Assembly: GCA_026395655.1 (NCBI GenBank)
Contig: JAPLYJ010000064.1
Location: 1-34,259, forward strand
Origin: Candidatus Parcubacteria bacterium
GTDB lineage: Bacteria > Patescibacteriota > Minisyncoccia > UBA6257 > JAPLYJ01
Reading direction: 5' to 3'
Length of the DNA: 34,259 nucleotides
Under the pieces are notes generated by a model. The model worked only from the letters and a program-made list of their open reading frames with translations, did not search any database and was not told the origin of the DNA. The translations under genes were made by a program, and so were the position numbers. Within the stretch, counting starts at the first letter, position 1; each line of letters begins with the position of its first letter. Positions 3,567-33,323 of the stretch are shown here, in pieces.

Positions 3567-4371
3567 CCAGATTTTAGGAACAGAATATATAGACAAGATT
3601 ATTATGGTAGACCAATCTCCGATAGGACGCACGCCTAGGTCTAACCCAGCAACCTATACAGGTATTTTTACTCCTATTAGAGATTTCTATTCTAGTTTGC
3701 CAGAATCTCGAGAAAAAGGATACAAAGCTTCCCGTTTTTCTTTTAATGTTAGAGGAGGACGTTGTGAATCTTGCGAAGGTGCTGGTGCTAATTTGATAGA
3801 AATGCATTTTTTACCACCTGTTTTGGTAAAATGTGATGTTTGCCAAGGCAAAAGGTTTAACAGAGAAACATTACAAGTCAAATACAAAAAAAAGAATATC
3901 AGTGATGTATTAAATATGACTGTTGATGAAGCTTTGGATTTCTTTTTAGATAATTATTTGGTAGCAGAAAAACTTAAAGTGTTAAAAGAAGTAGGTTTGG
4001 GATATATTCAATTAGGTCAATCTGCTACTACACTTTCAGGCGGAGAAGCCCAAAGAATCAAATTAGGCAAAGAATTAACTCATCCTTTAGGTAAAAGAGC
4101 CATATATCTTTTAGATGAACCTACCGTGGGTTTGCATTATCATGATATTGAAATGCTTTTAAAGGTGATAAACAAATTAGTGGACAAAGGTAACACAGTT
4201 TTAGTTATTGAGCATAATATGCACATGATTAAATCAGCTGATCATATTATTGATTTAGGTCCAGAAGGAGGGGAACATGGTGGTAAATTAATAGCTCAAG
4301 GTAGCCCTGAAGAAGTGGTTAAAAACAAAATTTCATATACAGCTAAATACCTAAAAACGTATTTGCGTTGA
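3523..4371 (+). CDS. uvrA: UvrA C-terminal fragment (authentic in-frame continuation begins at about 3567)
   Basis: [40 protein letters not shown]...CDVCQGKR zinc finger, second [11 protein letters not shown], Walker [18 protein letters not shown]. Deleting one 37-bp copy fuses it in frame to 1827-3533. Confidence 0.9.
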
Positions 4372-6104: not shown

Positions 6105-7945
6105 ATGGATAACATTAGAAATGTAGCTATTATTGCTCACGTAGACCATGGTAAAACATTATTGCTCACGTAGACCATGGTAAAACCACTTTAGTGGACG
6201 CTCTTTTGCGTCAATCAAAAACCAAACTTAATAAGAATGTTATTGATGAAACTTGCATCATGGACTCTAATGATTTAGAGCGTGAAAGAGGTATTACTAT
6301 TTTTTCAAAAAATGCTTCTGTTGTTTACAACGGAACAAAAATTAATATTATTGATACCCCAGGTCATGCTGATTTTGGTGGTGAGGTAGAACGTGTTTTA
6401 GCCATGGCCGACGGTTGTTTACTTTTAGTAGATGCTAAAGAAGGACCCATGCCTCAGACTAGATTTGTTTTAAGAAAAGCCTTAGAGATGAAACACAGAA
6501 TCATTGTGGTTATCAATAAGGTAGACAAAGTTGAAGCTCGACCTGATTTTGCTTTGAATAAAACTTTTGATTTGTTTATGGATTTAGGTGCAGATGATCA
6601 TACTGCTGATTTTCCCGTAATTTATGCCGCTACTCGAGAAGGTAAAGCGGGTTTAGATTCTGATTTATCAAAAATGGTAGATATTACAGATATTTTTGAA
6701 GCTATCATCAAATATATTCCACCGCCTAAAGGAGATATTGATAAACCTTTGCAAATGTTAGCTACTACCATTAAAGGAGATAATTTTAAAGGCAGAATTG
6801 TTACCGGAAGAATTTCTAATGGGATAATACGCAGTGGACAAGAAGTAATGCATATTAATCATTTAGGAGTGATGAAAAAGTATAAATTAACTTCTCTTTA
6901 TACCTACGAAGGTTTAGAAAAAAAAGAAATTGAAGAAACTGTAGCTGGAGATATTGTAGCTGTTTCTGGTATTCCTGATATTAATATTGGAGAAACTATT
7001 GCTGATCCTATTAACCCCATAGCTTTACCTTTGTTATTTATCGATGAACCTACAGTTAAAATGGTTTTTAGTATTAATGACTCACCTTTTGCAGGTAAAG
7101 AAGGGGAATTTGGTAGTTCCAGGCAAATCAATGAAAGATTGCAAAAAGAATTAGAAACAGATATGGCTTTAAAAGTAGCTGACGGACCCAATGCTACCTG
7201 GATAGTTTCTGGTAGAGGTGAATTACATTTAGCCATTTTAATTGAAAGATTACGCCGTGAAGGATATGAATTTCAAGTATCTTCTCCACAAGTAATTTCT
7301 AAAGAAGAAAATGGTAAAAAATTATATCCTTTTGAACAGGTATATATTGAAGTTCCTGAAGAATATTCTGGAATAGTCATTCAAAAATTAGGTAGCCGTC
7401 ATGGAGAAATGAAAGAAATGTATACTGAAAATGGTATTGTGTTTTTAGAATTTATCGTACCTACCAGAGGTTTATTTGGCTACCGTGGTCAATTTTTAAC
7501 TGATACTAGAGGATTGGGTATTATCAACACTGCTTTTTACAAATATCTACCAGATGAAAAAGAATGGAGACCTAGAGAGCAAGGTTCTTTGGTAGCCCAC
7601 GAAACTGGTAAAACTAGATTGTATGGTTTAGTTAATGTCCAAGACAGAGGTATTCTTTTTATTGGCTCAGGAGTAGATGTGTATAAAGGACAGGTAGTGG
7701 GGCAAAATAATCGTAGCCAAGATATTAGCGTTAATATTTGCAAAGAAAAACAATTGTCTAATATGCGAGCTAAAAATGATGGGGCCACAGAACATTTTGA
7801 TACTCCTAAAACTATGGGTCTAGAAGCTGCCTTAGAATATATTGGGGAAGATGAATTAGTGGAAGTGACACCTTTAAATATCAGAATCAGAAAAAAGATT
7901 TTAGATGAGACAGAAGAAAGACGTCGTCAAAAGAATTTAGGTTAA
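6105..7945 (+). CDS. typA: Translational GTPase TypA/BipA, reading frame broken near the 5' end by a 29-bp tandem duplication (intact ORF part is 6194-7945)
   Basis: ATG at 6105 encodes [18 protein letters not shown], then runs into a stop at 6171-6173. After removing one repeat copy it reads [30 protein letters not shown]. Downstream motifs: DTPGHADFGGEVER, NKVD, EF-G-like domains. Confidence 0.92.
6129..6186. repeat. Perfect tandem duplication, 2 x 29 bp (6129-6157 and 6158-6186), inside the typA G1 motif
   Basis: attattgctcacgtagaccatggtaaaac occurs twice head to tail with no mismatch. 29 is not a multiple of 3. Confidence 0.97.
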
Positions 7946-12777: not shown

Positions 12778-13554
12778 ATGAAGCTTAAAACATATCTAGG
12801 ATTGATTATCACCGTCATCGTATTATCTATTTTGTGGTGGGTTAGTATGTCTTTTAAAAATCTTTCTTTTCAACAAGAAGTTATCAATTATCAACCTAAC
12901 ACTGTCGCAGAATCAGAATCTTGGGATCCTGAAAATGTAGATATATATCCCTTTTTACCAAAATATGTAGATGGAGCACAATGGCAAAAAAAGATTGTTG
13001 ATATTAATAATGACAATATTAACGAAATCATGATTTTTGCTTGCGATCAAACTGAAAATAGCTACCAAGCTAATGTTTCTATTTTAGGTCCTAATGAAAA
13101 AAATCAACCTATTCTAAAATCAGAATTAGTTTTACCTAATAGCCAAGCTATGGGTAATTTTGATTGTCCTAGCTTCAAAGAATTAAAAGATGTTAATCAA
13201 GATAGCTTAAATGAAATTTTGATTAATCTAGGAGAACCAGAAACAGGGGTATCAAATTTTGGTATTTTCTCATATGATGGTACTAATTTAAATTGGGTAA
13301 AAATAGAAGATGTTTTAGGTAATGATTCTTTCTCAATTTTTAGTGAAGGATCATCAGAACAAGATCTTTCTGTTTTTGAATTAATACCTTTAGAAAAAGG
13401 CATTGTGCAATTTAAAGGAACAATATTAGAAAATAATTCTTGGTCAGGTATTGTAGATGCTTACATCTGGCAAGACAATATTTTTAAATATGATCAGAGT
13501 CTCTCTGAAAAATTAAAAAAACAAGGTCCTACCTTGGAAACATTAAATGGATAA
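12778..13554 (+). CDS. Membrane-anchored hypothetical protein, possible FG-GAP/Ca-binding-like repeats
   Basis: N-terminal TM helix. DINNDNINEIMIF and DVNQDSLNEILINLG look like DxNxD...E loops. Weak call. Confidence 0.45.
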   Translation: MKLKTYLGLIITVIVLSILWWVSMSFKNLSFQQEVINYQPNTVAESESWDPENVDIYPFLPKYVDGAQWQKKIVDINNDNINEIMIFACDQTENSYQANVSILGPNEKNQPILKSELVLPNSQAMGNFDCPSFKELKDVNQDSLNEILINLGEPETGVSNFGIFSYDGTNLNWVKIEDVLGNDSFSIFSEGSSEQDLSVFELIPLEKGIVQFKGTILENNSWSGIVDAYIWQDNIFKYDQSLSEKLKKQGPTLETLNG

Positions 13555-14398
13555 AAAAATATATGTAATTAATGGTGCTGGGGACCAAGAACCCCTTTCT
13601 GAGTTTAAGGTATATCGTAGCGCTAAACGTAGCGGGGCTAGTAATGATTTAGCCAAGCAAATTGTTTTTGAGATACAACAAAAAGCATATCCTGGTATTA
13701 CTACCCAGGAAATTCATGACAGAATAAAATCTTTTTTAATCAAAGAAGCTCCGTATTCTGCCATGCGTTTTAGTTTAAAAGAAGGTATTAGAAAATTAGG
13801 ACCTACTGGTTTTCATTTTGAAAAATACGTAGCTGATATTTTTGAAGACTATGGCTATGCTGTCCAAAACCATCAATATCTTCCCGGGGTATGTGTCAAT
13901 CACGAAGTTGATTTTTTAGCTAAAAAAGAAAAAAAGATTTTTGTGGGAGAATGTAAATATCACAATACCATTGGTTGCCGTGTAGACTTGAAAGTAGTTT
14001 TAGCTAATCATTCTCGTATCACAGATTTAGAAAATGGTAAATTCTTTAAAACAAAAGAATTAAAAGATTTAAAAATGCAAGGTATTGTGGTAACTAACAC
14101 CAAGTTTACTACTGAAGCTATCAAATACACTCAATGCGTAGGCTTGGATCTTTTAGGTTGGAGACACCCCAATGATCATGGCTTAGAATATATGATAGAA
14201 TCAAGAAAACTATACCCTGTGACTATTTTACCTTCTTTGACTGATAATTTTATTGGATCTTTTGCTGAAGAAAGAATCATGTTGGTTAAAGATGTTTTGG
14301 TGTTGGATTTAATACGTTTTGGTCGTAAATGGGGGATTCCGGAAAGCAGAATGAGACAGATTAAAAAAGAAGCAGAGTTATTGATGAATTCTAAATAG
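13547..14398 (+). CDS. ATP-cone domain fused to a restriction-endonuclease-like (Mrr/PD-(D/E)xK) domain
   Basis: N-terminal IYVINGAGDQEPLSEFKVYRS...TTQEIHDRI (ATP-cone-like). Nuclease core FEKYVADIFEDYGY...HEVDFLAKKEKKIFVGECKYH. Confidence 0.6.
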   Translation: MDKKIYVINGAGDQEPLSEFKVYRSAKRSGASNDLAKQIVFEIQQKAYPGITTQEIHDRIKSFLIKEAPYSAMRFSLKEGIRKLGPTGFHFEKYVADIFEDYGYAVQNHQYLPGVCVNHEVDFLAKKEKKIFVGECKYHNTIGCRVDLKVVLANHSRITDLENGKFFKTKELKDLKMQGIVVTNTKFTTEAIKYTQCVGLDLLGWRHPNDHGLEYMIESRKLYPVTILPSLTDNFIGSFAEERIMLVKDVLVLDLIRFGRKWGIPESRMRQIKKEAELLMNSK

Positions 14399-23657: not shown

Positions 23658-25385
23658 ATGGACGGGAAAAAGATTATATCAGGGATGCCATCAATGTCTC
23701 CAAAAACACCAGAGGCAATGGAGCAACCAAAAGAAATTGAAAAAAAGTTTTTAATTGAAACCTTGCCTGATAATTTAGAAGATTATCCTTCTGAAGAAAT
23801 TATGCAAGGATATATTGCTATTACCGACGATGGTACGGAAGTTCGTTTACGCAAAAAAGGTGATATGTATTTTCAAACAATTAAAAGTGGGAATGGAAAA
23901 ACAAGAACAGAATCTGAAATTGAGATAACAGAAGAACAATTTAATATACTTTGGAAAACAACGGTTGGTAAAAGATTAGAAAAAAAGAGATATAAAATTC
24001 CTCATGCAAATGGAGTGATTGAATTAGATATCTATGGCGAAGGCTTAGAAGGTCTTGTAACAGCTGAAATAGAGTTTCCATCCGAAGAGGAAAGTGATGC
24101 GTTTGTTGTCCCAACTTGGTTTGGCGAAGAAGTAACAGAAGACAAAAGATATAAAAATCAAAAATTAGTATCTAGTGGTATGCCTGAAGAAGAGAATTTA
24201 GAAATATTAGATATCCCTGAATATAATTTAGAAGATGGCATAGAAAAAATAGTATCTCTTATTAATGAAAAATTATCCTCACAAACAGGTCCTGTTTTGA
24301 TTGAAATTGCAGGGGGTTCGGCTTCTGGCAAAACAAGCGCTGTCTCTCGGAAAATAAAAGAAATTTTTGGTGATGAAGCAATTATTTTTTCAATGGATGA
24401 TTACTATCGCGGAAAAACATTTATGAACAGCGAAGCAGAAAAAGGGAATAATCTAAATTGGGATCAACCAGAAGCTCTTAATTTAGAACTATTGCAAGAA
24501 CATTTAAAAAATTTAAAAAGCGGAGAGCAAATTGAAAAACCAGTATATGATATGAAAACTAGCGAACCCATAGATACAGAGATAATTCAACCTAACAGAG
24601 TTATTATCGTAGAAGGTCTATTCGCCCTTAATGATATCATCTCAGGAGAGGGTGATATTAAAGTATTTGTTGATATTGGTACGCATGGAAGGATTTTAAG
24701 AAGACTTTTGCGTGATATAGAGAGAACGGGTCAAAAGCCTGCTGATATTTTAAGGTATTTTGCTGAGGTAGTAGAGCCAATGCATGAAAAGTATATTCAA
24801 AACACGAAAAAGAACGCTAACATCATTGTAGATAATGAATATAGTCCAAAAGTAGAAGCTCAAAAGTCTGGCTTACATGAAATTCAATTAAAATTTAAAA
24901 TTGAATTAGATGCAGAAACTTTACGCAAGCTTGGCGCAGAAAGATTAAGTTCAACTACTCAAGTTGATTATTATTACAATCCTAAGGACAGAAATTTGAT
25001 TGAAACGAATGAGATTTTAAGAATTCGCCAAGAAGGGGATCACAAAATCTTAACTTATAAAGGTCCGAGGATGGAATCGGAATATAGGAAAAGACCAAAA
25101 TTTGAATTTGAAATTGATGAAGAAACAAATGAAAAATTCTTATCAATTTATGGTGACCAGATAAAAGAGATTAGAAAAGAAAGAATTTTATATGAATTAG
25201 AGGGAATAATATTTTCCATAGATTCAGTCATGAAAATAGAAGATGGGAAAGAAATAGATTTAGGCAAATTTATTGAGATTAGATCTACTAATAAAGAAAT
25301 AAATGATGAAAAAATAAAAGATGTAATATCAAAGCTTGGTCTGTCTTTACCGGATGGTATCAAAGAGTCGTATTTTGAAATGTAA
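23658..25385 (+). CDS. Triple-domain protein: CYTH (triphosphate tunnel metalloenzyme), uridine-kinase/PRK-family P-loop kinase, then a second CYTH (CyaB-like)
   Basis: CYTH1: EIEKKFL (ExExK), EVRLRKKG, ESEIEI, RYKI, ELDIY, AEIEF. Kinase: IAGGSASGKTS, SMDDYYRG, NWDQPEALN, VIIVEGLFAL, RRLLRDI. CYTH2: HEIQLKFKI, ILRIRQEG, LTYKGP, FEFEI. Confidence 0.8.
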   Translation: MDGKKIISGMPSMSPKTPEAMEQPKEIEKKFLIETLPDNLEDYPSEEIMQGYIAITDDGTEVRLRKKGDMYFQTIKSGNGKTRTESEIEITEEQFNILWKTTVGKRLEKKRYKIPHANGVIELDIYGEGLEGLVTAEIEFPSEEESDAFVVPTWFGEEVTEDKRYKNQKLVSSGMPEEENLEILDIPEYNLEDGIEKIVSLINEKLSSQTGPVLIEIAGGSASGKTSAVSRKIKEIFGDEAIIFSMDDYYRGKTFMNSEAEKGNNLNWDQPEALNLELLQEHLKNLKSGEQIEKPVYDMKTSEPIDTEIIQPNRVIIVEGLFALNDIISGEGDIKVFVDIGTHGRILRRLLRDIERTGQKPADILRYFAEVVEPMHEKYIQNTKKNANIIVDNEYSPKVEAQKSGLHEIQLKFKIELDAETLRKLGAERLSSTTQVDYYYNPKDRNLIETNEILRIRQEGDHKILTYKGPRMESEYRKRPKFEFEIDEETNEKFLSIYGDQIKEIRKERILYELEGIIFSIDSVMKIEDGKEIDLGKFIEIRSTNKEINDEKIKDVISKLGLSLPDGIKESYFEM

Positions 25386-25410: not shown

Positions 25411-26271
25411 ATGAATCAAAACAATTTTGTATCTGGAATGCCTCAGATGCCTCAAGAAAGCAAAGAGAGCGAACCAAAAATTGCGAAATTATCAGTTAAT
25501 GATTTTGCTGAAAAAATTGGGATTCAGCCCGATCAGCAAGGTCGTGTTACTTTTGCTCCAGAGCATGATAGGTTAGCATATGAATACGCTGAGAAATTTG
25601 CTCGCGACAATAAAGCAGAAAGAGTTATTATAGATGGTATTGCTTCTCCTGGAGTGATAGCTAGTTTTTTACATGGTATGCACCCAGCAGAAGGTTATTT
25701 AACCTATATGTCAAAAGACGCAGAAGGTAAAATGACAAAAGGTGAGACTAAAGTTTTAGAACCATTACCTCAAGGCGAAGGACAAGGACCAGAAGGTTTT
25801 ACATGGGTAAAAAAAGAAACCGAGGATTATACCTTAGTGGAATTTAATCTTGCTGGAGATTTTAAGATAGAAGATTTAGATAAAGTTATTCCTCCTGATG
25901 TTAATCCTGCAAAACCAGTGTTAATTTCCGGTCGTGGTCCTCTTTATCTAACTCATACAATTGCTGCTGGGTACAGGCATTATAAAGGCATTCCAGGGGT
26001 TGGTTTTTATCAGCCAGCAAGTAAATTCGGACCAGCTAAAACTGAAGTTGGTGTTTCTCACAATGAAGAGTTACCTTTAGGATTGAATTTTGGTGAACCA
26101 TCTGAAATTGGCACAGCTAAAGAGTTACATGAAAAACGAATTAAAGAGGGATTATCTGAAATAAAAAAGGGTAAAATTGTTTCTGTAGAAACAAATGATA
26201 AAATCATAAAATTTACTTTAGATAGCGGTGAAACATACAGTTTATCTGTTCGCGAGGTAACAAAAGAATAA
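25411..26271 (+). CDS. Csx3-like protein (possible tandem/pseudo-dimeric Csx3 fold), 286 aa
   Basis: YTLVEFNL...KPVLISGRGPLYLTHTIAAGYRH...VGFYQP...VGVSHNEE is collinear with my recollection of A. fulgidus Csx3 (FTLIHFEI...GVVISGRGPIWLHCFLAHKYHH...VAVYDPRLG...VVQSHSE). An upstream segment RVIIDGIASPGVIASFLHGMHP looks like a degenerate second copy. The ATG at 25411 is preferred over the alternative start at 25336. Confidence 0.55.
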   Translation: MNQNNFVSGMPQMPQESKESEPKIAKLSVNDFAEKIGIQPDQQGRVTFAPEHDRLAYEYAEKFARDNKAERVIIDGIASPGVIASFLHGMHPAEGYLTYMSKDAEGKMTKGETKVLEPLPQGEGQGPEGFTWVKKETEDYTLVEFNLAGDFKIEDLDKVIPPDVNPAKPVLISGRGPLYLTHTIAAGYRHYKGIPGVGFYQPASKFGPAKTEVGVSHNEELPLGLNFGEPSEIGTAKELHEKRIKEGLSEIKKGKIVSVETNDKIIKFTLDSGETYSLSVREVTKE

Positions 26272-26357: not shown

Positions 26358-29300
26358 ATGTCAGAACAAATTAATCTTTCAAAAGGGAAAGAAAAAAAGG
26401 AAACCATCTTAATACCTGAGCAACAAGTTATTAAAAATTATATTAATGAAGTTCTTGTAGCTGATAATAAATTAGATCTACCAGTAGTAATAATTTCTAG
26501 TCCCGAAGCCCAAGAAATAGTGAAGCAAAAGCTCATTACGTGTTTTAAAAACAATAATATTAATGATGCTATTAAAATTAATGATACATTTAAGCTACCA
26601 AAGGAAATAATCCAAGAAGCAGTTAAACAAGGAATTATTTATCATTTGAGAGGCCATTATATTTATAATGCTTTTGAAATTAGTAATGCATTTAATTTGC
26701 CACCAAAAATAGTCCAAGAAGTAACCAAACAAGCGCTCATTAACTATTTTGAATATGGATATATTGAGTCTGCTATCGAAATTACTGAGATATTTAATTT
26801 ACCTGATGAAATAATTTTTAGTCTTGAAGTGCAACAGGCAGCAGCACAACCATTTATTAGTAAATTTAAATATGGTTCTCTTGACGATGCTATTAAAATT
26901 AATGATACATTTAAGCTACCAAAGGAAATAATTCAAGAAACAGCTAAACAAGCGTTTATTGTATGGTTTTGCAACCATCGTATTGATGATGTTATTTATG
27001 ATATTAGCATAGCCCAATATGCATTTAATTTACCCAAAACAATAGCCCAAGATGCACCTAAACAAGGATATATTGAATGCCTTAAGAGTGGTTTAATTGA
27101 CGCTGCTATAGAAATCAAAGATATATGCAAATTATCTTTATCTAAAGAGATAATTTCTGATCCAGAAGTACAAAAAGGAATTGAAGAAGGATTTATTAAT
27201 TATCTTCATAATAATCAAATTGATATTGCTATTAAAATTAAAGATGAATTTAATCTACCAGACGAAATAGTCCAAAAAGCAGTAGAACAAGTAGTTATTA
27301 AACATTTGCGTGAGCATCAAGTTAATATTGCCATTAAAATCAAAGACAAGTTTAATTTATACATATCTCCACAAAAAATAATTGATCAGATCCCTAAGCT
27401 AGTTGATATCATTGAACAAATATCTCAATTGGCACCACCATTTAAGATGCAAACGGAGAAATCTAGCGAGTTGGTAATTGGATTGTGTCGTTTTATTAAT
27501 AAGCCAGATTATTTAATAAATCTATTAAAAGAAAAACTCTATTTGATTGATGCCATAATGAGTAACCCTCGTTTTGGTTCAAGACTTCTTTTGAAATATC
27601 CTGAATTTGACGAAATGTCTAAAGAAAATATAGAAAAACTTTTTTTAACTAAACAAAAAATATTAGAGCAAAATCCTGATATAGATCCGGAATCATTAGA
27701 ATTTCGTCAATTAATGCAGGAGGAATTAAAAACATTCAAAAACAATCCCGAAATAATGGAAGAAATCGAAAAGCAAGGAATTAATTTAGAAGAATGGCTT
27801 AATCATTCTGAAACTAGTTATTTTAACCTTTCTTCTAAGGGTAGCGAGATTAGTTTTTCAGAGAAAATCAGAACGCCAATAGATAGAATTAAAGAAACTA
27901 TTGATAGCTATGCCCATACCATTAAATCAGTTTTAAAAGAATATATACTAGAATTAAAAAAACATGAGATAGCTTTAGAAAATGATGAATCTGTTAAAGA
28001 GCAGATTACAAAAATGGAGGGTGCTTTAGAACAAGCCCAAGCAGAAGGCAATGATACAAAAATTAAAGGAATAGAAAGAGGTCTATTGACTCAAAGAGAA
28101 AGATTAAATAATCCTAAAAAGGGTATTCTTTGGGACAAACTCATGGGTGATATTGAAGCTTTCCAAGGTCTTAAAAATGATTGTTTTGATGCTCAAAAGA
28201 AATTAATAGAAGCAGAGGACAAATTAACAGGAGCTCTTGCAGGTAAAGCACCTTCTGGCAAAGGTGTTTTAGAGATAAAACAAAAAATTGCTCAAGCTAA
28301 AGAAGAATTAAGAAATAAGTTTAATGTTTTAGAAAGAAGAATTGAAAATTTTAAAATTAATTTACCCAAACTTTTATCACCGTGCCTTGGGCAAGAAAGA
28401 AGTGAAGCCTTGATTCAGGAAATAGACCAGGCAGTAGCTGAGCAATTTTATCATTTTGAATTAGATAGAACTGTTTTAGCAAATATGTTTTCTGAAAGAA
28501 ACGACAAGGAAACAGAGCAATTAGAGTCCAGACCAATGAGTATTTTTGTTTGGGCGAGAAATCCTGACATTGATCTTTATCAAGGTGATTATTCACCCTG
28601 TTGCATTTGCATAGATAGTTATGATGCTACAGAATCAACAATAGCAGATTATAATACAGATCTTGGCATTCAAATCGTTAATATTTGGGATGAAGCAAAA
28701 AACGAACCAGTTACTGCTGCCTGGTGTTGGTTGGGTCAAAACGAAAATGGAGAAAAGGCATTAGTGATAGATAACATTGAATCCAATGTACTTTTTAGTA
28801 CTAATTTTTCAGAACAATTATCTAAAGAATTATTAGATTATATTATAAATTACGCTAAAAAAATTGGAGTTGATAAAGTAATTCTAGGAGTAGACTATAG
28901 TGACCTACCTAGTGCTTCTAAGTTATTAGAATTAAAATGGGATAATAATGAATATGAAAAAATTGGTGGAAGCAATAGAGAATATGGGTATTATTTAGAG
29001 TCGGAAGGAGATATTATCAAGCTTATTTGGGACAGGAAAGAAGACGAAACAATAAAACAACCAAAAGAAGCAAGAAAACAAAAAGAAACTATTAAATTTG
29101 AAAACATATCTGTTACTAATTTGACTGAAGAAAATTTTGATGAGATTAGACAATTAGAAGCTAAAATTTATCAAGATACTGGATTAGCCCAAGGTTCAGG
29201 ATTAATAGAAAATATAAAATCTGATAATGGCTTAGAATACTCATTAATAATTAGAGGTAAACAACCAGATCAAGAAGAAAAAATTATTGGATATATCGTA

Positions 29301-29621
29301 GCCGTAGATGACGAAACCGATGAAGGTGATCCCTGCATATATTTAGAAGATATTGCAGTGTTAGATGAAGCCCAGGGTCAAGGATTGGGTTGGGAGATGC
29401 TTAAAGAATTAGTTAATAAGTTAAAAATTAAAGCACAAAAAAACAAAAAACCAATATTGCTAGATATGCATTTAAGAAAAAATTCCCAGGGATTATTACA
29501 AAAACACAAAGAAGATTTAGAAGAGATGGGGGTAAGATTAACAGAAGAAGCATTAGAACCTAATTATTATGATACAAATGAAGATGCGTTGTATCAGATT
29601 TATCAAATTCAAATAGATTAA
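26358..29621 (+). CDS. Large multidomain protein (1087 aa): N-terminal array of about 34-aa helical repeats, a coiled-coil-like middle, a Cys/Trp-rich domain and a C-terminal GNAT N-acetyltransferase
   Basis: Repeats F(N/K)LPxEIxQxAxKQxxIxxL...I(D/N)xAIxIxD x about 8. GNAT motif A IYLEDIAVLDEAQGQGLGWEMLKELV at roughly aa 995-1020. Confidence 0.8.
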   Translation: MSEQINLSKGKEKKETILIPEQQVIKNYINEVLVADNKLDLPVVIISSPEAQEIVKQKLITCFKNNNINDAIKINDTFKLPKEIIQEAVKQGIIYHLRGHYIYNAFEISNAFNLPPKIVQEVTKQALINYFEYGYIESAIEITEIFNLPDEIIFSLEVQQAAAQPFISKFKYGSLDDAIKINDTFKLPKEIIQETAKQAFIVWFCNHRIDDVIYDISIAQYAFNLPKTIAQDAPKQGYIECLKSGLIDAAIEIKDICKLSLSKEIISDPEVQKGIEEGFINYLHNNQIDIAIKIKDEFNLPDEIVQKAVEQVVIKHLREHQVNIAIKIKDKFNLYISPQKIIDQIPKLVDIIEQISQLAPPFKMQTEKSSELVIGLCRFINKPDYLINLLKEKLYLIDAIMSNPRFGSRLLLKYPEFDEMSKENIEKLFLTKQKILEQNPDIDPESLEFRQLMQEELKTFKNNPEIMEEIEKQGINLEEWLNHSETSYFNLSSKGSEISFSEKIRTPIDRIKETIDSYAHTIKSVLKEYILELKKHEIALENDESVKEQITKMEGALEQAQAEGNDTKIKGIERGLLTQRERLNNPKKGILWDKLMGDIEAFQGLKNDCFDAQKKLIEAEDKLTGALAGKAPSGKGVLEIKQKIAQAKEELRNKFNVLERRIENFKINLPKLLSPCLGQERSEALIQEIDQAVAEQFYHFELDRTVLANMFSERNDKETEQLESRPMSIFVWARNPDIDLYQGDYSPCCICIDSYDATESTIADYNTDLGIQIVNIWDEAKNEPVTAAWCWLGQNENGEKALVIDNIESNVLFSTNFSEQLSKELLDYIINYAKKIGVDKVILGVDYSDLPSASKLLELKWDNNEYEKIGGSNREYGYYLESEGDIIKLIWDRKEDETIKQPKEARKQKETIKFENISVTNLTEENFDEIRQLEAKIYQDTGLAQGSGLIENIKSDNGLEYSLIIRGKQPDQEEKIIGYIVAVDDETDEGDPCIYLEDIAVLDEAQGQGLGWEMLKELVNKLKIKAQKNKKPILLDMHLRKNSQGLLQKHKEDLEEMGVRLTEEALEPNYYDTNEDALYQIYQIQID
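26466..27390 (+). repeat. Intragenic array of about 8 degenerate 34-codon repeats. Two segments 321 nt apart are nearly identical at the DNA level.
   Basis: gatgctattaaaattaatgatacatttaagctaccaaaggaaataat is identical at 26565-26611 and 26886-26932 (both encode DAIKINDTFKLPKEII). Confidence 0.85.
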
Positions 29622-29637
29622 GATGTTTTACCACCTA

Positions 29638-29666
29638 TTGACAAATCTTTAAGAATATGCATAATA
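29638..29666 (+). promoter_or_regulatory. Consensus sigma70-type promoter P1, 17 nt after the stop of the 1087-aa gene
   Basis: TTGACA (29638-29643), 17 nt, ATAATA (29661-29666). Confidence 0.6.
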
Positions 29667-29671
29667 ACAAA

Positions 29672-29976
29672 TAGAACATTGAGATTAGTTTTTTAAAAAT
29701 GCTTTGGATGATTGCTGACTGTTATTTAGCTACTTAGAGATAGGTGATTAAATAACAGCCAGCAACATCGGCTGACACCTCGCCCTAGGTGGAAAGGCAC
29801 CCCTAGGAACGAAAGGAGACGCCTCCGTATGGTTCCATACCCTGCAGGTGTTCCCCCTTAGCATTTTTTTAAGGCGACGACACCGCCTTATTCATCCCCG
29901 CCCAGTCTGGTGTCGAGACTAGGGCTTATAGAAAAAAATTTGGTAAGTCTCAGCCGAAATATGACTGAGACTTACC
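29672..29976 (+). ncRNA. Candidate structured RNA A1 (about 300 nt), unknown class
   Basis: No long ORF. Contains a 17-bp AT-rich hairpin (29712-29765), a CCTAGG hairpin, a 10-codon mini-ORF (29829-29861), an AAGGCG/CGCCTT hairpin (29871-29889), a hairpin with a GGUGUCG loop (29901-29924) and a terminal 12-bp hairpin (29942-29976). Confidence 0.45.
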
Positions 29977-29981
29977 ACCAT

Positions 29982-30010
29982 TTGACAAATTCTGATAGAT
30001 ATGCTATACT
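29982..30010 (+). promoter_or_regulatory. Consensus sigma70-type promoter P2
   Basis: TTGACA (29982-29987), 17 nt, TATACT (30005-30010). Confidence 0.6.
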
Positions 30011-30015
30011 AAGTG

Positions 30016-30206
30016 AGTAATTGAATAGAGTTAGGTTTTTAAGCTAGTTTGTCCCCAAAGCTTCCAGAACTTTACAATTTAAAAAGTATACATTAAGGAG
30101 AGGCCGCCCGAGCTGGGGCGGTAATACAAATCAGCTAAAACGGCTAAGCGAAGTATCTTTAGGTTAATTTTTAATCTTCTCCGGATATTTCGCTTAGCCG
30201 TTTTTT
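30016..30206 (+). ncRNA. Candidate small RNA B (about 190 nt) ending in a long intrinsic terminator
   Basis: No ORF after its AAGGAGAGG motif. Contains a CCGCCC gagct GGGCGG hairpin. The terminator CGGCTAAGCGAA...TTCGCTTAGCCG (30141-30200, extendable to about 18 bp) is followed by TTTTTT. Confidence 0.45.
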
Positions 30207-30752
30207 AAACGGTTAACAGCACCTTAACATATTGTTCAAAATCATCTGCCATTCACTTTTTAAGGAGAGAGTGGCTACCTTAATAGGTAGTAACAGGAGA
30301 GAGTCCAAGGAGAGAGAATGGATTATAGATAATTTTGAATGAAGCCCAAACCAAATTAGCGAGTTAGAGAATTAAATTAAAAGGGCAAAAATATTTAATT
30401 CTTCAAATACCAAATATTGGTTAAAAAATAAACTCGCTGCTCCTAATTTAGCGGTAAAACTGCGGTTAGGACTGCTGCAATTAAGATTAACCCCCTTAAT
30501 TGGTCAGCAGGCCTTAGATTTGCTTGATACAAATTAAGAAAATTTAAGGCCTGCTAATTCTCAGCAGGAGAAAGGTGGTGGTGCCGATGATCGCATCGGG
30601 CATCCCGCCGTAACAAATCAAGGACGGCACCGTCCTCTCTATCCGAGAAGGGTTGACACATCAGTCTTGGTGCCGAGATTGATGGAAAAACGGTTTATGG
30701 GGTAAGTTTACCGAGACTTCGAGAGAAATAAACTCTCGGCTAAACTTACCCC
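30207..30752 (+). ncRNA. Hairpin-dense non-coding stretch including RNA A2, the 3'-module paralogue of A1
   Basis: Three AGGAGAGAG copies (30263-30316). A multibranch unit closed by GCGAGTT/AACTCGC. A perfect 10-bp GCAGGCCTTA/TAAGGCCTGC stem. A mini-ORF at 30587-30613. An AGGACG/CGTCCT hairpin (30621-30636). A GGUGCCG-loop hairpin (30659-30684). A terminal hairpin at 30699-30752. Confidence 0.4.
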
Positions 30753-30843
30753 CTCACATTCAGATTATAAATTAAAAATAATTTGTAATTTGAAACATGA
30801 GGATAGAGTTCTTTTAAAAATAAAAAATCGCTTCTAGCTATTT

Positions 30844-30892
30844 CTGGCTGCTGTTTAGGTATTTAATATTTAGATATTTGAATAGCAGTCAG
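30844..30892 (+). promoter_or_regulatory. Conserved 14-bp leader hairpin (copy 1)
   Basis: CTGGCTGCTGTTTA ...21 nt... TGAATAGCAGTCAG with three G-U pairs. The paralogue at 31800-31848 differs only on the 3' arm, and pairing is kept. Confidence 0.6.
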
Positions 30893-30947
30893 AACGACCC
30901 TCAGAAGTCCTGACCGTAGTATAGCAGGCCGAGGAAGAAGGAGAAAC

Positions 30948-31217
30948 ATGCAATGCACGAAGGAGTGGAAAACCCAGGATGTTATTACACGCGGGGAACG
31001 CGTAACCTGGTGGGAGGCAAACCACTACCGGGTAATTGTCCCGGTATTCGAAAGTAGCAATGAGGAATTTGAGTTTCTCATTGCCCACAAGCTAGAACAT
31101 GCGGACCAGTACGGTGATTCTTCCGGAGATTCTTCCTTCTCAGATTTCTTTTGGGACAGGATAGAGAGCTTAGCAGAGACACTCGGGGTGCCTGCCCCGC
31201 AAAGGTCGTCTCGCTAA
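30948..31217 (+). CDS. Possible small protein (89 aa) in module copy 1. Coding status uncertain because the segment is hairpin-rich.
   Basis: SD gaAGGAGaaacATG. Protein-like sequence with a GDSSGDSS tandem repeat. It also contains perfect inverted repeats (31026-31046, 31057-31084, 31184-31199). Confidence 0.35.
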   Translation: MQCTKEWKTQDVITRGERVTWWEANHYRVIVPVFESSNEEFEFLIAHKLEHADQYGDSSGDSSFSDFFWDRIESLAETLGVPAPQRSSR

Positions 31218-31268
31218 GTCTACGGAATAATAGTTGGAGAGGTGTCCCGAATCCTCTAAAAAATCGGG

Positions 31269-31294
31269 GGCAGAGCGATGCCGATCGCTCTGCC
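31269..31294 (+). promoter_or_regulatory. Conserved GC-rich hairpin downstream of the module ORF (copy 1)
   Basis: GGCAGAGCGAT gccg ATCGCTCTGCC. The paralogue at 32112-32135 (AGCAGAGCGA tgcg TCGTTCTGCT) carries a G-C to A-T compensatory pair. Confidence 0.6.
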
Positions 31295-31327
31295 AAATGG
31301 CCCTTCGGGGTTTATTCGGGAGGTTCT

Positions 31328-31363
31328 GGAAAGTTTCCTCGGTAAAAACTTTCCAATCTTTTT
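31328..31363 (+). terminator. Rho-independent terminator (module copy 1, first unit)
   Basis: GGAAAGTTT cctcggtaa AAACTTTCC then AATCTTTTT. Confidence 0.7.
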
Positions 31364-31441
31364 CAGCTCATAAACAAAATTTGTGGTCTGAAAGAGGAGA
31401 AATATTAGTTCTTTACAATTTTTAATATTTCCTTATTCTAA

Positions 31442-31496
31442 TTTTGTGTTGCTAATTTAGTAATTTATTTTAGATTATTAAATCGGCAACACAAAA
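31442..31496 (+). promoter_or_regulatory. Conserved leader hairpin immediately upstream of the SD of the small TM ORF (copy 1)
   Basis: TTTTGTGTTGC ...33 nt... GCAACACAAAA. Paralogue at 32267-32321. Confidence 0.6.
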
Positions 31497-31517
31497 AAGA
31501 AAGGAGAAAAGAGAAAA

Positions 31518-31667
31518 ATGAGTCCAGAAGATACGGGACCTTTTTGGGGCCCACTGGTTATCTACGGTCCCTTGTTGTTGGGGCTCGCAATTGTAGCGGT
31601 TATATCCCGTTACAATGAATGGAAAAAGGAGATCACTAATCTCCTAGAAAGGAGAAAAAGAAAATAA
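31518..31667 (+). CDS. Small membrane peptide (49 aa): one TM helix plus a basic tail
   Basis: SD aAAGGAGaaaagagaaaaATG. Sequence MSPEDTGPFWGPLVIYGPLLLGLAIVAVISRYNEWKKEITNLLERRKRK. Below the ORF-track size cut-off. Confidence 0.5.
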   Translation: MSPEDTGPFWGPLVIYGPLLLGLAIVAVISRYNEWKKEITNLLERRKRK

Positions 31668-31679
31668 GAAAAGGCGGAC

Positions 31680-31716
31680 GGCAGGTTCCGCTAAGGGTTA
31701 TAACCTGCCTCTTTTT
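31680..31716 (+). terminator. Rho-independent terminator (end of module copy 1)
   Basis: GGCAGGTT ...14 nt... AACCTGCC then TCTTTTT. Confidence 0.75.
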
Positions 31717-31799
31717 CAGATTATAAATTAAAAAAAATTTGTAATTTGAAACATGAGGTTAGAGTTCTTTTAAAAATTAAAAAACGCTTCTAGTTATTT

Positions 31800-31848
31800 C
31801 TGGCTGCTGTTTAGATATTTAATATTTAGATATTTAAATAGCGGCCAG
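31800..31848 (+). promoter_or_regulatory. Conserved 14-bp leader hairpin (copy 2)
   Basis: CTGGCTGCTGTTTA ...21 nt... TAAATAGCGGCCAG. Confidence 0.6.
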
Positions 31849-31898
31849 GAATTGGTCGACTAATTCTTACCTAAGAAGGTAAGAGAAAGGAGTATGGG

Positions 31899-32090
31899 AT
31901 GGGGATCCCAGTTGGTTATACAAAACACCTAATACTGTGTTTTGTGGAACAGGCGCAGGATCAGGCGCCTGTCACGGGCACAGGCGACTCCACGTGGTAT
32001 GTGGAGTCGCTATGTAATATCATCCGCCGTTTATTGGCGGATGAGCCAGATGAGCCATTCCTAGCAGTAGTTAATCAAGGGGTGCCCTAA
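31899..32090 (+). CDS. Possible small protein (63 aa). More likely a multi-hairpin RNA, or dual-use.
   Basis: SD aAAGGAGtatgggATG, but 31865-32043 consists of six consecutive perfect hairpins. The start codon sits inside one of them. Confidence 0.25.
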   Translation: MGIPVGYTKHLILCFVEQAQDQAPVTGTGDSTWYVESLCNIIRRLLADEPDEPFLAVVNQGVP

Positions 32091-32111
32091 ATCCTCTTTA
32101 AAAAAAATCGG

Positions 32112-32135
32112 AGCAGAGCGATGCGTCGTTCTGCT
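32112..32135 (+). promoter_or_regulatory. Conserved GC-rich hairpin downstream of the module ORF (copy 2)
   Basis: AGCAGAGCGA tgcg TCGTTCTGCT, homologous to 31269-31294. Confidence 0.55.
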
Positions 32136-32163
32136 AGGTTGTGCCCTGCGGGGTATAGATTCG

Positions 32164-32203
32164 CAGGGAGGCGTGTTGGTTACACGAACTCCCTGTTCTT
32201 TTT
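32164..32203 (+). terminator. Rho-independent terminator (module copy 2, first unit)
   Basis: CAGGGAG ...18 nt with inner GTGT/ACAC... CTCCCTG then TTCTTTTT. Same position as 31328-31363 but a different sequence. Confidence 0.7.
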
Positions 32204-32266
32204 CAGCTCATAAACAGAATTTGTGATCTGAAAGAGGAGAAAGTATTAGTTTTTTTCTTTTTCTAA

Positions 32267-32321
32267 TTTTGTGTTGCTAATTTAGTAATTTACTTTAGAT
32301 TATTAAATCGACAACACAAAA
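32267..32321 (+). promoter_or_regulatory. Conserved leader hairpin upstream of the small TM ORF (copy 2)
   Basis: TTTTGTGTTG ... CAACACAAAA. Confidence 0.55.
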
Positions 32322-32338
32322 AAAGAGGAGGCATTAAA

Positions 32339-32482
32339 ATGACCATCGAACAATTAGCACGGCTCCTACTTTTAGTAGGAGTGATCATGATTGCAGCTTA
32401 GATCATGGCTGCAATCACCTGGAAGAAGTATTCCAGGTGGTGGATCTGGAAGTATAAAATAGAAAGGAGGGAAAAAAGATAA
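32339..32482 (+). pseudogene. Paralogue of the small TM peptide interrupted by an in-frame TAG (32399-32401)
   Basis: SD agAGGAGGcattaaaATG. Sequence MTIEQLARLLLLVGVIMIAA*IMAAITWKKYSRWWIWKYKIERREKR. It shares TM + WKK + ERR(K/E)KR architecture with 31518-31667. The TAG lies in the loop of a perfect 10-bp hairpin, TGATTGCAGC/GCTGCAATCA. Confidence 0.35.
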
Positions 32483-32528
32483 AAAAAGCGGATGGCAGGT
32501 TTCGCTAACGGTTATACCCTACCTCTTT

Positions 32529-32641
32529 TTCAGATTATAAATTAAAAATAATTTGTAGTTTGAAAGAAGGGGATATTAGCTCTTTAAAAAACATTTTTGC
32601 AAGGAATACAATTATATTTTAGATGTAGTTGTATTCCTCGC
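32529..32641 (+). repeat. Third, partial module copy (box retained, different leader hairpin)
   Basis: 32529-32565 matches the box at 30759-30795 and 31715-31751. This is followed by the hairpin GCAAGGAATACAA...TTGTATTCCTCGC (32599-32641). Confidence 0.7.
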
Positions 32642-32689
32642 AAAAAGATAGCCACTAAAAACTATACGTGGCAGAAAGGAGGTAATAAA

Positions 32690-33076
32690 ATGAAAGAATT
32701 GGAAGATGCTTTCAACTTTTTGGATAAAAAAATCCAAGAAGTAAAAGATGAGGAAGAGGCAACAAAAAAACGTGCTGCCATTTTTCCCGAAACTGCCCTG
32801 AAGTTGTTACAAAGGGCAACTAGAGAGACAGTGCATATTCTTCTGCCTCACTCCACAGGCAAAATGTGCCTAATCTTTTCACCTCCCATCGAAAAGATTC
32901 AAAAATGGTGGCTTTGCATATATCATGGAGAGCCATTATCGTTTGTTTTTGACGACGACGGATGGGCCAATAACATGCTCGTCAAAGAATGCCTCCAGGC
33001 GTTTATTGATAGGGCTGTTGAGCCCAAAGTATTTCTGGCTTTTCCCAAAGAGCCAGAAATGTTTCCTCAAGTTTAA
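32690..33076 (+). CDS. Hypothetical protein (128 aa)
   Basis: SD aAAGGAGGtaataaaATG at the internal Met of ORF 32597-33076. Protein-like sequence (MKELEDAFNFLDKKIQEVKDEEE...). No motif recognised. Confidence 0.55.
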   Translation: MKELEDAFNFLDKKIQEVKDEEEATKKRAAIFPETALKLLQRATRETVHILLPHSTGKMCLIFSPPIEKIQKWWLCIYHGEPLSFVFDDDGWANNMLVKECLQAFIDRAVEPKVFLAFPKEPEMFPQV

Positions 33077-33167
33077 CTTTAACGTTAGCTCTTTCTGATG
33101 CGAGGCAGAAAGGAAAAAAATGGGGGAGGGATAAATAACATTCCTCCCCAATTTCTCATAAAAAAAA

Positions 33168-33195
33168 TTGACAGTTAATCTCAGTTTGATAATAT
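33168..33195 (+). promoter_or_regulatory. Consensus sigma70-type promoter for the rod-like RNA
   Basis: TTGACA (33168-33173), 16 nt, TAATAT (33190-33195). Confidence 0.55.
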
Positions 33196-33202
33196 TAAAG
33201 TA

Positions 33203-33323
33203 CAAACAAGAACCGCTTAGAGGCGGACTAAAGTGAAGAAGTGATGTCCATCTTTCGGGGTGGAGGAATCTCTCTCCTTACATCATTAATTCATATTTGG
33301 TCTGCCCTTAAGCGGTTTTTTTT
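33203..33323 (+). ncRNA. Candidate rod-like small RNA (about 115 nt), unknown class
   Basis: Long closing helix AACCGCTTAGAGGCGGAC / GTCTGCCCTTAAGCGGTT. Inner GTGATGT/ACATCAT helix. Apical hairpin with a UUCG loop. Followed by TTTTTTT. No ORF. Confidence 0.45.

What the first reader, a model, noticed from the sequence alone, without database searches (positions are those of the whole stretch)
25411..26271. Csx3-like protein without any CRISPR-Cas context, possibly an internally duplicated pseudo-dimer
The C-terminal half carries VLISGRGPLYL...AAGYRH...GFYQP...GVSHNEE. It aligns residue for residue with the core of archaeal Csx3 as I remember it (VVISGRGPIWL...AHKYHH...AVYDP...QSHSE).

The N-terminal half (RVIIDGIASPGVIASFLHGMHP...YLTYM) looks like a degenerate copy of the same segment. 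Csx3 acts as a dimer, so a tandem fusion could form the substrate cleft within one chain.

A stand-alone ring-nuclease-like protein beside CYTH domains hints at turnover of an adenylate-based signal or RNA-tail trimming (inference). The identification rests on memory of one sequence and needs a profile search.
Basis: partly seen in the sequence, partly recalled or inferred. Interest (0 to 1): 0.7.

Follow-up and report, generated by a model that had tools for sequence, protein, structure and literature searches.

The report
CRISPR-free single-chain double Csx3 protein
This gene from an ultra-small (CPR/Patescibacteria) bacterium encodes a real relative of the CRISPR "ring nuclease" Csx3. Two Csx3-type halves are fused in one chain, two key catalytic residues are missing, and no CRISPR genes lie nearby; in most relatives it sits in an operon with an RNA helicase and a P-loop protein.

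Summary
ORF 25411-26271 (+) encodes a 286-aa protein. Residues about 128-228 are a genuine Csx3/Crn3 fold: Pfam PF09620 scores above its gathering cut-off, HHalign to canonical Csx3 gives 99.7%, and Foldseek to AfCsx3 gives TM 0.75-0.80 at 2 Å.

The N-terminal half (about 20-127) is a degenerate, partial Csx3 repeat. This shows only through intermediate relatives: CPR N-half to wider N-half 99.1%, and wider N-half to canonical Csx3 97.2%. On its own the N-half model resembles CARF/SAVED domains only weakly and does not hit Csx3.

No cas gene occurs in the window or within the flanks held (up to 8 kb each side) of 56 related loci.

The CYTH neighbour is not the conserved partner. In 23 of 32 informative lineages an HrpA-like DEAH helicase lies directly upstream. 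It is usually preceded by a protein carrying the P-loop domain that is fused to Csx3 elsewhere, with variable HD, nucleotidyltransferase, radical-SAM or GNAT genes in between.

The cA4-binding loop, H57/H60 (in the N-half) and H80 (in the C-half) are kept. D69 and R71, both needed for AfCsx3 activity, are lost in both halves.

Best reading: a CRISPR-independent, pseudo-dimeric nucleotide or oligonucleotide-binding module whose catalytic status is uncertain. It is a new variant of a known kind, of moderate interest.

The parts
25411..26271 (+). Whole gene: 286-aa tandem (pseudo-dimeric) Csx3-family protein
   Evidence: ORF. 70 full-length homologues at 47-97% identity. dN/dS 0.06-0.16. AF2 model with pLDDT 89.5 and pTM 0.83.
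25411..25467 (+). Variable N-terminal extension (aa 1-19) with low model confidence
   Evidence: pLDDT below 50 for residues 1-19. Poorly conserved in alignment A1.
25468..25791 (+). N-half (aa 20-127): degenerate, partial Csx3-like repeat. It keeps the strand-helix-strand core and the His pair H88/H91, equivalent to AfCsx3 H57/H60.
   Evidence: HHalign: CPR N-half to wider-family N-half 99.1% (E 4.4e-19); wider N-half to canonical Csx3 97.2% (E 2.9e-11). A canonical-Csx3 HMM finds this half in about 40 relatives at i-E 1e-5 to 3.7e-10. H88 is conserved in 39/45 and H91 in 40/45. Modelled alone (pLDDT 89.8), its best Foldseek hits are CARF/SAVED domains at E 0.007-0.1, with no Csx3 hit.
25792..26094 (+). 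C-half (aa 128-228): bona fide Csx3/Crn3 fold. It has an intact S173-G174-R175-G176-P177-L178 ligand loop and H217 (=H80), but R189 (=H60), Q201 (=D69) and A203 (=R71).
   Evidence: Pfam, PADLOC and PDB hits. HHalign 99.7%. Foldseek to 3wzg/3wzi/6yud: TM 0.75-0.80, rmsd about 2.0 Å, 31-33% identity. Residue mapping.
26095..26268 (+). C-terminal tail (aa 229-286): a long helix plus a three-stranded sheet. It is specific to this subfamily and its role is unknown (oligomerisation is a guess).
   Evidence: Secondary structure of the model. No Pfam hit. Present in the CPR family and in P0072 but absent from most wider relatives.
23658..25385 (+). Context only: upstream CYTH - uridine-kinase-like P-loop - CYTH protein, 25 nt from the target gene. 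The association is seen in only two lineages.
   Evidence: Pfam and NCBIfam. PDB: NeuTTM 2fbl at E 2e-36, and AtTTM1 7z66. Synteny.
26358..29621 (+). Context only: downstream 1087-aa repeat protein with a C-terminal GNAT domain. It is conserved only in the same species (L005).
   Evidence: Pfam Acetyltransf_1 at E 1.2e-9. tblastn.

Best explanation
The gene encodes a single-chain pseudo-dimer of the Csx3 fold that works independently of CRISPR-Cas.

Shown:
- The C-half is a Csx3 domain that keeps the loop AfCsx3 uses to bind cyclic tetra-adenylate (S-G-R-G-P-L) and the H80 equivalent.
- The N-half is a diverged copy that keeps only the H57/H60 histidine pair.
- Both halves lack the D69/R71 pair.
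- The same two-half module occurs in many other proteins, fused to P-loop, HD, MazF or 2H-like domains.
- In most CPR relatives the gene is the last gene of an operon. The operon starts with a large protein carrying the Csx3-associated P-loop domain, and an HrpA-like DEAH helicase lies just upstream of the Csx3-type gene.

Inferred:
- Fusing two different halves breaks the two-fold symmetry of the Csx3 dimer. The protein therefore probably binds an asymmetric adenylate-containing ligand on its C-half face. Candidates are a short linear or cyclic oligoadenylate, an RNA 3' end, or a polyphosphorylated nucleotide.
- It would then act as the ligand-binding or ligand-turnover subunit for the P-loop and helicase partners.
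- Canonical Mn-dependent cA4 ring-nuclease chemistry is unlikely to be intact.
- In this genome the gene has been separated from that operon. The CYTH-kinase neighbour is probably a local rearrangement rather than a functional clue.
For: - Csx3 identity of the C-half.
- Duplication origin of the N-half. Alignment A3 has nearly invariant H88, H91, P92, G174, P177, Y188, Q201, P202 and H217.
- Confident two-lobed model (pTM 0.83) with full-length SAVED hits.
- The module recurs in at least 45 representatives at 50% identity, with varied fusions: AAA/P-loop, HD, MazF, DUF4116.
- Operon: helicase directly upstream in 23 of 32 informative lineages. It matches TIGR01967 HrpA at E 6e-112.
- The first operon protein matches the PADLOC 'Csx3-AAA' and 'AAA-Csx3' profiles. 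Its P-loop HMM also hits P-loop domains fused to Csx3 in P0139, P0171, P0128 and others, which is a domain-fusion link.
- Purifying selection.
- No cas genes in any locus. CPR bacteria rarely carry CRISPR-Cas (PMC4742961).
- Roles of the AfCsx3 residues come from PMC7371418.
Against: - No ligand, activity or partner interaction has been tested.
- This window does not contain the operon partners, so the link is by homology only.
- The N-half model alone does not hit Csx3 by Foldseek. N-half against C-half within the narrow family is not significant.
- I could not inspect model coordinates. It is therefore unverified that the two halves pack like the AfCsx3 dimer.
- Invariant residues could form a rewired active site, so catalysis cannot be excluded. 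Candidates are H88, H91, R189, H190, Q201, K210 and H217.
- Loci come from metagenome bins with inconsistent taxon labels and are partly redundant; they collapse to 35 groups at 95% identity.
Confidence: 0.55

Rival explanations
1. It is an ordinary Crn3/Csx3 ring nuclease. It degrades cA4 made by a type III CRISPR-Cas system (or another oligoadenylate cyclase) encoded elsewhere in the genome, and it simply became a single-chain dimer.
For: - Csx3 fold, with the cA4-contacting loop S44-G45-R46-x-P48-I49 conserved as S173-L178 and H80 as H217.
- The H57/H60 pair is conserved in the N-half.
- Some sources already name relatives 'CRISPR-associated protein Csx3'.
Against: - D69 is replaced by invariant Q201 and R71 by A203 in the C-half. 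The N-half equivalents Y99 and S101 are variable. D69A abolishes and R71A strongly reduces AfCsx3 activity (PMC7371418).
- The TIGR02579 equivalog score is 27.5 against a cut-off of 55.4.
- No cas gene lies within the flanks held (up to 8 kb each side) in 57 loci.
- CPR bacteria are largely devoid of CRISPR-Cas (PMC4742961).
Confidence: 0.15
2. It is an RNA 3'-end binding or trimming factor (Csx3 was first described as a Mn-dependent deadenylase). It would work with the HrpA-like RNA helicase and the variable nucleotidyltransferase, HD, GNAT or radical-SAM enzymes in RNA surveillance, repair or modification.
For: - The directly adjacent, co-oriented HrpA-like DEAH RNA helicase is the most conserved neighbour.
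- Operon variants carry NTP_transf_2, radical SAM, GNAT and a Mesh1/SAH-like HD domain.
- One relative (P0079) has HxT/S motifs in front of the module that, from memory, recall 2H phosphoesterases (sequence read only).
- AfCsx3 binds an RNA tetranucleotide in PDB 3wzi.
Against: - AfCsx3 binds RNA about 100-fold more weakly than cA4 (PMC7371418).
- The residue essential for the reported deadenylase activity (H60) is Arg in the C-half.
- The helicase may be a housekeeping HrpA whose adjacency reflects shared ancestry among related genomes.
- This window lacks the helicase.
Confidence: 0.2
3. It is a counter-defence or mobile-element gene. It would act as a sponge or nuclease for immune signalling nucleotides and be spread by horizontal transfer.
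For: - Patchy distribution: only 13 loci among the species-representative genomes.
- Context varies even among copies that are at least 95% identical.
- A wider relative (P0185) sits between two VirD4/TraG coupling-protein genes and an HNH gene.
Against: - No relative in 2.9 million viral contigs, and no viral structural match.
- Neighbours here and in most loci are chromosomal housekeeping genes such as EF-P, EpmA-like, GroEL and ribosomal protein S9.
- There is a stable operon with a helicase.
Confidence: 0.07

Closest known systems
Csx3/Crn3 ring nuclease (AfCsx3, AF_1864; PDB 3wzi, 6yud; Pfam PF09620)
   Same: - The C-half has the same fold (TM 0.75-0.80, 31-33% identity).
- It has the same S-G-R-G-P-(I/L) ligand loop, Y59 and H80.
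- The N-half keeps the H57/H60 pair.
   Different: - One chain with two unequal halves instead of a homodimer of subunits of about 100 aa.
- D69 and R71 are lost in both halves, and H60 is Arg in the C-half.
- An extra 58-aa tail.
- Not next to type III CRISPR-Cas.
- Below the TIGR02579 equivalog cut-off.
AAA-Csx3 (C3a67) and Csx3-AAA type III accessory proteins (Shah et al. 2019, PMC6546367)
   Same: - PADLOC C3a67 matches aa 126-192 (E 2.9e-6).
- Relatives such as P0084 are P-loop plus the same two-half module.
- The operon partner in CPR relatives carries the same P-loop domain.
   Different: - Here the P-loop domain is not fused. In this window it is not even adjacent.
- Those families were defined by adjacency to type III cas cassettes, which is absent here.
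SAVED domains (Cap4, Cap5, Cap14, CalpL): fused CARF-like pseudo-dimers that sense cyclic oligonucleotides
   Same: - The same design principle: two related alpha/beta halves in one chain, which allows an asymmetric ligand.
- Foldseek hits over the full length (E 6.5e-4 to 3e-3), and the N-half alone hits Cap4/Cap5 SAVED and Csm6/Csa3 CARF domains weakly.
   Different: - TM-scores are only about 0.35, with rmsd 9-11 Å.
- Sequence profiles place the protein in Csx3, not SAVED.
- No fused effector domain.

Membership tests
Csx3/Crn3 (PF09620 / TIGR02579) | Sequence profile match above the curated threshold | tested here: inconclusive
   Pfam: 24.4 bits against a gathering cut-off of 21, so met. 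NCBIfam equivalog TIGR02579: 27.5 bits against 55.4, so not met. The protein is a family member at domain level but not an equivalog.
Csx3/Crn3 (PF09620 / TIGR02579) | Csx3 three-dimensional fold | tested here: met
   The C-half of the AF2 model against 3wzg/3wzi/6yud: E about 1e-5, TM 0.75-0.80, rmsd 1.9-2.1 Å over 90-98 columns.
Csx3/Crn3 (PF09620 / TIGR02579) | cA4-contacting loop S44-G45-R46 and I49 (the 'D69 face') | tested here: met
   S173-G174-R175-G176-P177-L178 in the C-half. G174, G176 and P177 are invariant; S173 and R175 are at least 90% conserved. The N-half has D75-G76-I77-A78-S79-P80 instead.
Csx3/Crn3 (PF09620 / TIGR02579) | Catalytic and metal-binding histidines H57, H60 and H80 (absolutely conserved in Csx3 according to PMC7371418) | tested here: inconclusive
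   The set is split between the halves. H57 and H60 correspond to H88 and H91 in the N-half only; the C-half has A186 and R189. H80 corresponds to H217 in the C-half only.
Csx3/Crn3 (PF09620 / TIGR02579) | D69 and R71 (D69A inactive, R71A strongly reduced) | tested here: not met
   Q201 (invariant) and A203 in the C-half; Y99 and S101 (variable) in the N-half. About half of the wider two-half relatives keep D-P-K/R in the N-half, but this family does not.
Csx3/Crn3 (PF09620 / TIGR02579) | Homodimer of small subunits that stacks head-to-tail around cA4 | not testable with these tools
   The protein is a fused two-half chain. Oligomerisation cannot be assessed, and no model coordinates or multimer prediction were available.
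Csx3/Crn3 (PF09620 / TIGR02579) | Genomic association with type III (or type I) CRISPR-Cas | tested here: not met
   No cas gene or array in the window. None among the conserved or Pfam-checked neighbours in the flanks held of the 56 related loci.
Csx3/Crn3 (PF09620 / TIGR02579) | Mn2+-dependent cleavage of cA4 to A2-P | not testable with these tools
   This is a biochemical assay.
AAA-Csx3 / Csx3-AAA (PADLOC C3a67, PDLC01045) | Csx3 module fused to the characteristic P-loop ('AAA') domain | tested here: not met
   The target has no P-loop domain. The domain is on a separate operon protein in relatives and is absent from this window.
SAVED / CARF superfamily | Two CARF-like Rossmann-type halves in one chain forming one ligand pocket | tested here: inconclusive
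   Full-length Foldseek hits to 9om7, 9wq3, 9wq2 and 6wam at E 6.5e-4 to 3e-2, but TM is only about 0.35. The N-half alone hits Csm6 CARF at E 7e-3 and Cap4/Cap5 SAVED at E 0.03-0.1.

The most novel reading that the evidence does not exclude
The two-half Csx3 protein could be the ligand sensor or turnover subunit of a previously undescribed nucleotide-signalling or RNA-surveillance system in CPR bacteria that does not depend on CRISPR. The system would comprise a large protein carrying the Csx3-type P-loop domain, an HrpA-like DEAH helicase, and interchangeable HD, nucleotidyltransferase, radical-SAM or GNAT enzymes. The broken symmetry of the pseudo-dimer would let it recognise an asymmetric ligand other than cA4.
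Probability: 0.3. Interest if true: 0.75.

Novelty: new variant of a known kind. Interest (0 to 1): 0.55.

Why it matters
Csx3/Crn3 is known as an off-switch for type III CRISPR signalling, and it needs two dimers to build one active site.

This variant is conserved and under purifying selection in bacteria that largely lack CRISPR-Cas. It has the dimer hard-wired into one chain, with its functional residues split between the halves, and it is tied to an RNA helicase and a P-loop protein. That would show the Csx3 fold has a life outside CRISPR, much as SAVED is the non-CRISPR counterpart of CARF.

It also gives a concrete entry point (one small soluble protein and a four-gene operon) into accessory nucleotide or RNA biology of CPR bacteria. 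In addition, the two-half architecture in the wider family may explain the uncharacterised 'AAA-Csx3' CRISPR accessory proteins.

Tried and rejected
- Direct HHalign of N-half against C-half within the narrow family gave nothing. The N-half link became significant only after adding wider relatives.
- Foldseek of the N-half model alone gave no Csx3 hit in the top 50, only weak CARF/SAVED hits.
- CYTH as the functional partner: rejected as the general rule. It is upstream in only 2 of 32 informative lineages. The window's Udk-like P-loop domain shows no similarity to the Csx3-type P-loop.
- The downstream 1087-aa protein shows no detectable similarity to the large downstream protein in L002.
- Operon partners elsewhere in the window: none found by tblastn or HMM.
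- Phage origin: no relative in IMG/VR and no BFVD structural match.
- My reading of 'GGxDxHG / DIPLD / DHH / GFGQ' motifs in the N-terminal part of the P-loop protein as a DHH phosphoesterase rests on memory only. Pfam, phmmer and a profile search of PDB gave no support, so I make no claim.
- The second alignment-based homologue search added only three new relatives.
- The CARF classification paper (Makarova et al. 2020) could not be read. Whether it mentions tandem Csx3 is therefore unchecked. Full-text searches for 'tandem Csx3', 'two Csx3' and Csx3 together with HrpA found nothing relevant.

Full report
**1. What is at the coordinates**

The window is AT-rich (about 31% G+C). It carries ordinary bacterial genes:
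- uvrB, uvrA and uvrC
- typA/bipA
- an FeFe hydrogenase
- EF-P and an EpmA-like synthetase
- secD

No cas gene and no CRISPR array is present. The closest relatives come from CPR/Patescibacteria metagenome bins labelled Falkowbacteria, Uhrbacteria, Berkelbacteria and 'Saccharibacteria'. A few labels are obviously wrong.

**2. The C-terminal half is a real Csx3 domain**

- Pfam Cas_csx3 is above its gathering score (24.4 against 21 bits, aa 146-203).
- Four PADLOC Csx3 profiles hit, down to E 1.7e-9.
- phmmer finds AfCsx3 structures at E 1.7e-5.
- A profile of aa 128-228 against an alignment of canonical Csx3 proteins of about 100 aa gives HHalign probability 99.7%, E 8.6e-26.
- An AlphaFold2 model built on 24 homologues is confident (pLDDT 89.5, pTM 0.83). 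Its best PDB matches are AfCsx3 entries 3wzg, 3wzi, 6yud and 6vjg, with target TM 0.72-0.80, rmsd about 2 Å and 31-33% identity.
- The NCBIfam equivalog model is not reached (27.5 against 55.4 bits). This is a Csx3-family domain, not an orthologue of Crn3.

**3. The N-terminal half**

Within the narrow family, N-half against C-half gives nothing.

A search of 1.84 billion representative proteins with the family profile found 116 relatives. Only five are close (E below 1e-30). Many match both halves (query positions about 15-225) inside other architectures, whereas Csx3 proteins of about 100 aa match only positions 127-226.

In those wider relatives the N-half reads DGPAPAWL...H.VHP...DP[KR].G:
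- A canonical-Csx3 HMM detects it at i-E 1e-5 to 3.7e-10.
- Pfam reports two Csx3 stretches in several of them.

The profile chain is:
- CPR N-half to wider N-half: 99.1% (E 4.4e-19)
- wider N-half to canonical Csx3: 97.2% (E 2.9e-11, 39 columns covering strand 3, helix 2 and strand 4)
- wider N-half to wider C-half: 88%

The N-half is therefore a diverged, partial Csx3 repeat. Its first beta-hairpin has been replaced by a strand plus helices.

The structural evidence is softer. The N-half modelled alone (pLDDT 89.8) hits Csm6 and Csa3 CARF domains and Cap4/Cap5 SAVED domains only weakly (E 0.007-0.1), and it does not hit Csx3. The full-length model hits SAVED domains over its whole length (E 6.5e-4 to 3e-3, TM about 0.35). 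I could not inspect coordinates, so Csx3-dimer-like packing of the two halves is inferred, not shown.

**4. Functional residues**

In AfCsx3, cA4 is sandwiched between two faces of adjacent dimers (PMC7371418):
- the 'D69 face' of one dimer (I22, S44, G45, R46, I49, D69, R71)
- the 'H60 face' of the next (H57, H60, H80)

H60A and D69A are inactive, and R71A and H80A are strongly impaired.

Mapped onto this protein:

| AfCsx3 residue | C-half | N-half |
|---|---|---|
| S44-I49 loop | S173-G174-R175-G176-P177-L178 (kept) | D75-G76-I77-A78-S79-P80 |
| H57 | A186 | H88 (invariant) |
| H60 | R189 (invariant) | H91 (invariant) |
| H61 | H190 | P92 |
| D69 | Q201 (invariant) | Y99 (variable) |
| R71 | A203 | S101 (variable) |
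| H80 | H217 (invariant) | no equivalent |

Across 45 two-half relatives:
- Q201 is conserved in 42/45
- H88 in 39/45
- H91 in 40/45
- P92 in 45/45
- G174 in 44/45

About half keep D-P-K/R in the N-half, but this CPR family does not. The residues are thus partitioned between the halves, and the D69/R71 pair is gone. The family-specific invariant loop A203-S-K-F-G-P-A-K210 might supply a substitute basic residue; this is my inference.

**5. Genomic context**

I fetched 56 related loci and clustered the neighbouring genes. The 57 gene copies, counting the window's own, collapse into 35 groups at 95% identity or more. Of these, 32 are informative:

| Upstream context | Groups |
|---|---|
| Co-oriented HrpA-like DEAH helicase directly upstream | 23 |
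| P-loop protein - radical SAM - 528-aa protein | 2 |
| Divergent helicase-like fragment | 1 |
| CYTH-Udk-CYTH (this species, and L054 with the related L055) | 2 |
| Unrelated housekeeping genes | 4 |

Details of the operon partners:
- The helicase matches TIGR01967 at E 6e-112 and carries the DEAD, Helicase_C, HA2 and OB_NTP_bind domains.
- The helicase variants usually begin with a protein of about 660 aa. Its residues about 412-640 match the PADLOC 'Csx3-AAA' and 'AAA-Csx3' profiles. Its HMM hits P-loop domains fused to Csx3 modules in P0139, P0171, P0128 and others. This is a domain-fusion link to the Csx3-type gene.
- Between that protein and the helicase lies one of several variable genes:
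  - a protein of about 690 aa with a Mesh1/small-alarmone-hydrolase-like HD domain
  - a 231-aa NTP_transf_2 protein, with or without a GNAT
  - nothing
- L050 also has a separate single-domain Csx3 and another radical-SAM gene.
- None of these partners is in the window.

No relative was found in viral contigs. One wider relative lies in a conjugative-element context.

**6. Interpretation**

The observation and the pseudo-dimer idea hold. The CYTH inference does not generalise, and plain ring-nuclease function is doubtful.

I commit to a CRISPR-independent, single-chain pseudo-dimeric Csx3 module. It would bind an adenylate-type ligand on the conserved C-half face and serve the P-loop and helicase system in most lineages. 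Its catalytic status is unresolved (confidence 0.55).

Rivals, with my confidence in each:
- canonical ring nuclease acting in trans: 0.15
- RNA 3'-end factor working with the helicase: 0.2
- mobile counter-defence gene: 0.07

A decayed remnant is excluded by dN/dS of 0.06-0.16 and by the invariant motifs.

**7. Novelty**

Databases already tag many of these proteins with PF09620, and some name them Csx3. The Csx3 identity is therefore not new.

Full-text searches found no description of the following:
- a tandem or pseudo-dimeric architecture
- the partition of catalytic residues between the halves
- the helicase and P-loop operon in CPR bacteria

One key classification paper could not be read. 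I rate this a new variant of a known kind, with interest 0.55.

Noticed in passing
window 29650-33300: About 3.5 kb with almost no long ORFs and higher G+C (0.39-0.41 against about 0.31). RNA-folding z-scores are extreme (-10.5 and -12.6) because of many long, near-perfect hairpins. A module repeats every 830-960 bp with blocks that are 91-96% identical. Each module has an RBS-like AGAAAGGAG(G) before a small ORF. Near-consensus promoter-like sites lie at 29638 and 29982. There is no Rfam hit and no phage DNA match. It looks like a cassette-like array of small genes separated by conserved hairpin repeats; any resemblance to integron cassettes is unverified.
   Followed up: partly
window 3493-3566 and 6129-6186: Two exact tandem duplications. 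A 37-bp unit (two copies) lies at the junction that splits uvrA into two ORFs (1827-3533 and 3523-4371). A 29-bp unit (two copies) lies just 5' of the typA/bipA ORF, and the duplicated unit encodes the GTPase G1 motif. These are either frameshifting duplications or assembly artefacts.
   Followed up: no
window 23658-23700 and 25411-25450: The CYTH-kinase protein and the Csx3-type protein both begin with a similar peptide containing SGMPxM (MDGKKIISGMPSM against MNQNNFVSGMPQM). Homologues of the Csx3-type protein lack it, and the DNA similarity is weak.
   Followed up: partly
L008 348-2381, L013 4060-6045, L001 2854-5478 (first gene of the operon in relatives): The N-terminal 400 aa of the P-loop protein are very highly conserved. 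Their invariant motifs (GGxDxHG, DIPLD, DHHxTT, GFGQ) reminded me of DHH/DHHA1 phosphoesterases. Pfam and PDB profile searches gave no support.
   Followed up: partly
L057 8001-8795 (protein P0185): A 264-aa two-half Csx3 relative lies between two VirD4/TraG-type coupling-protein genes and an HNH nuclease gene. This is a conjugative-element context with no cas genes, which raises the possibility that some members are counter-defence genes.
   Followed up: no
window 26358-29621: A 1087-aa protein with about ten N-terminal repeats of roughly 36 aa (…AIKINDTFKLPKEIIQEAVKQG…), a coiled-coil-like middle and a C-terminal GNAT domain. It is conserved only in the same species. GNAT genes also appear inside one operon variant of the relatives (L036).
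   Followed up: no
window 13547-14398: A 283-aa protein that combines an ATP-cone with an Mrr-like restriction endonuclease domain and an AF1548-like C-terminal domain. It may be a nucleotide-regulated nuclease.
   Followed up: no
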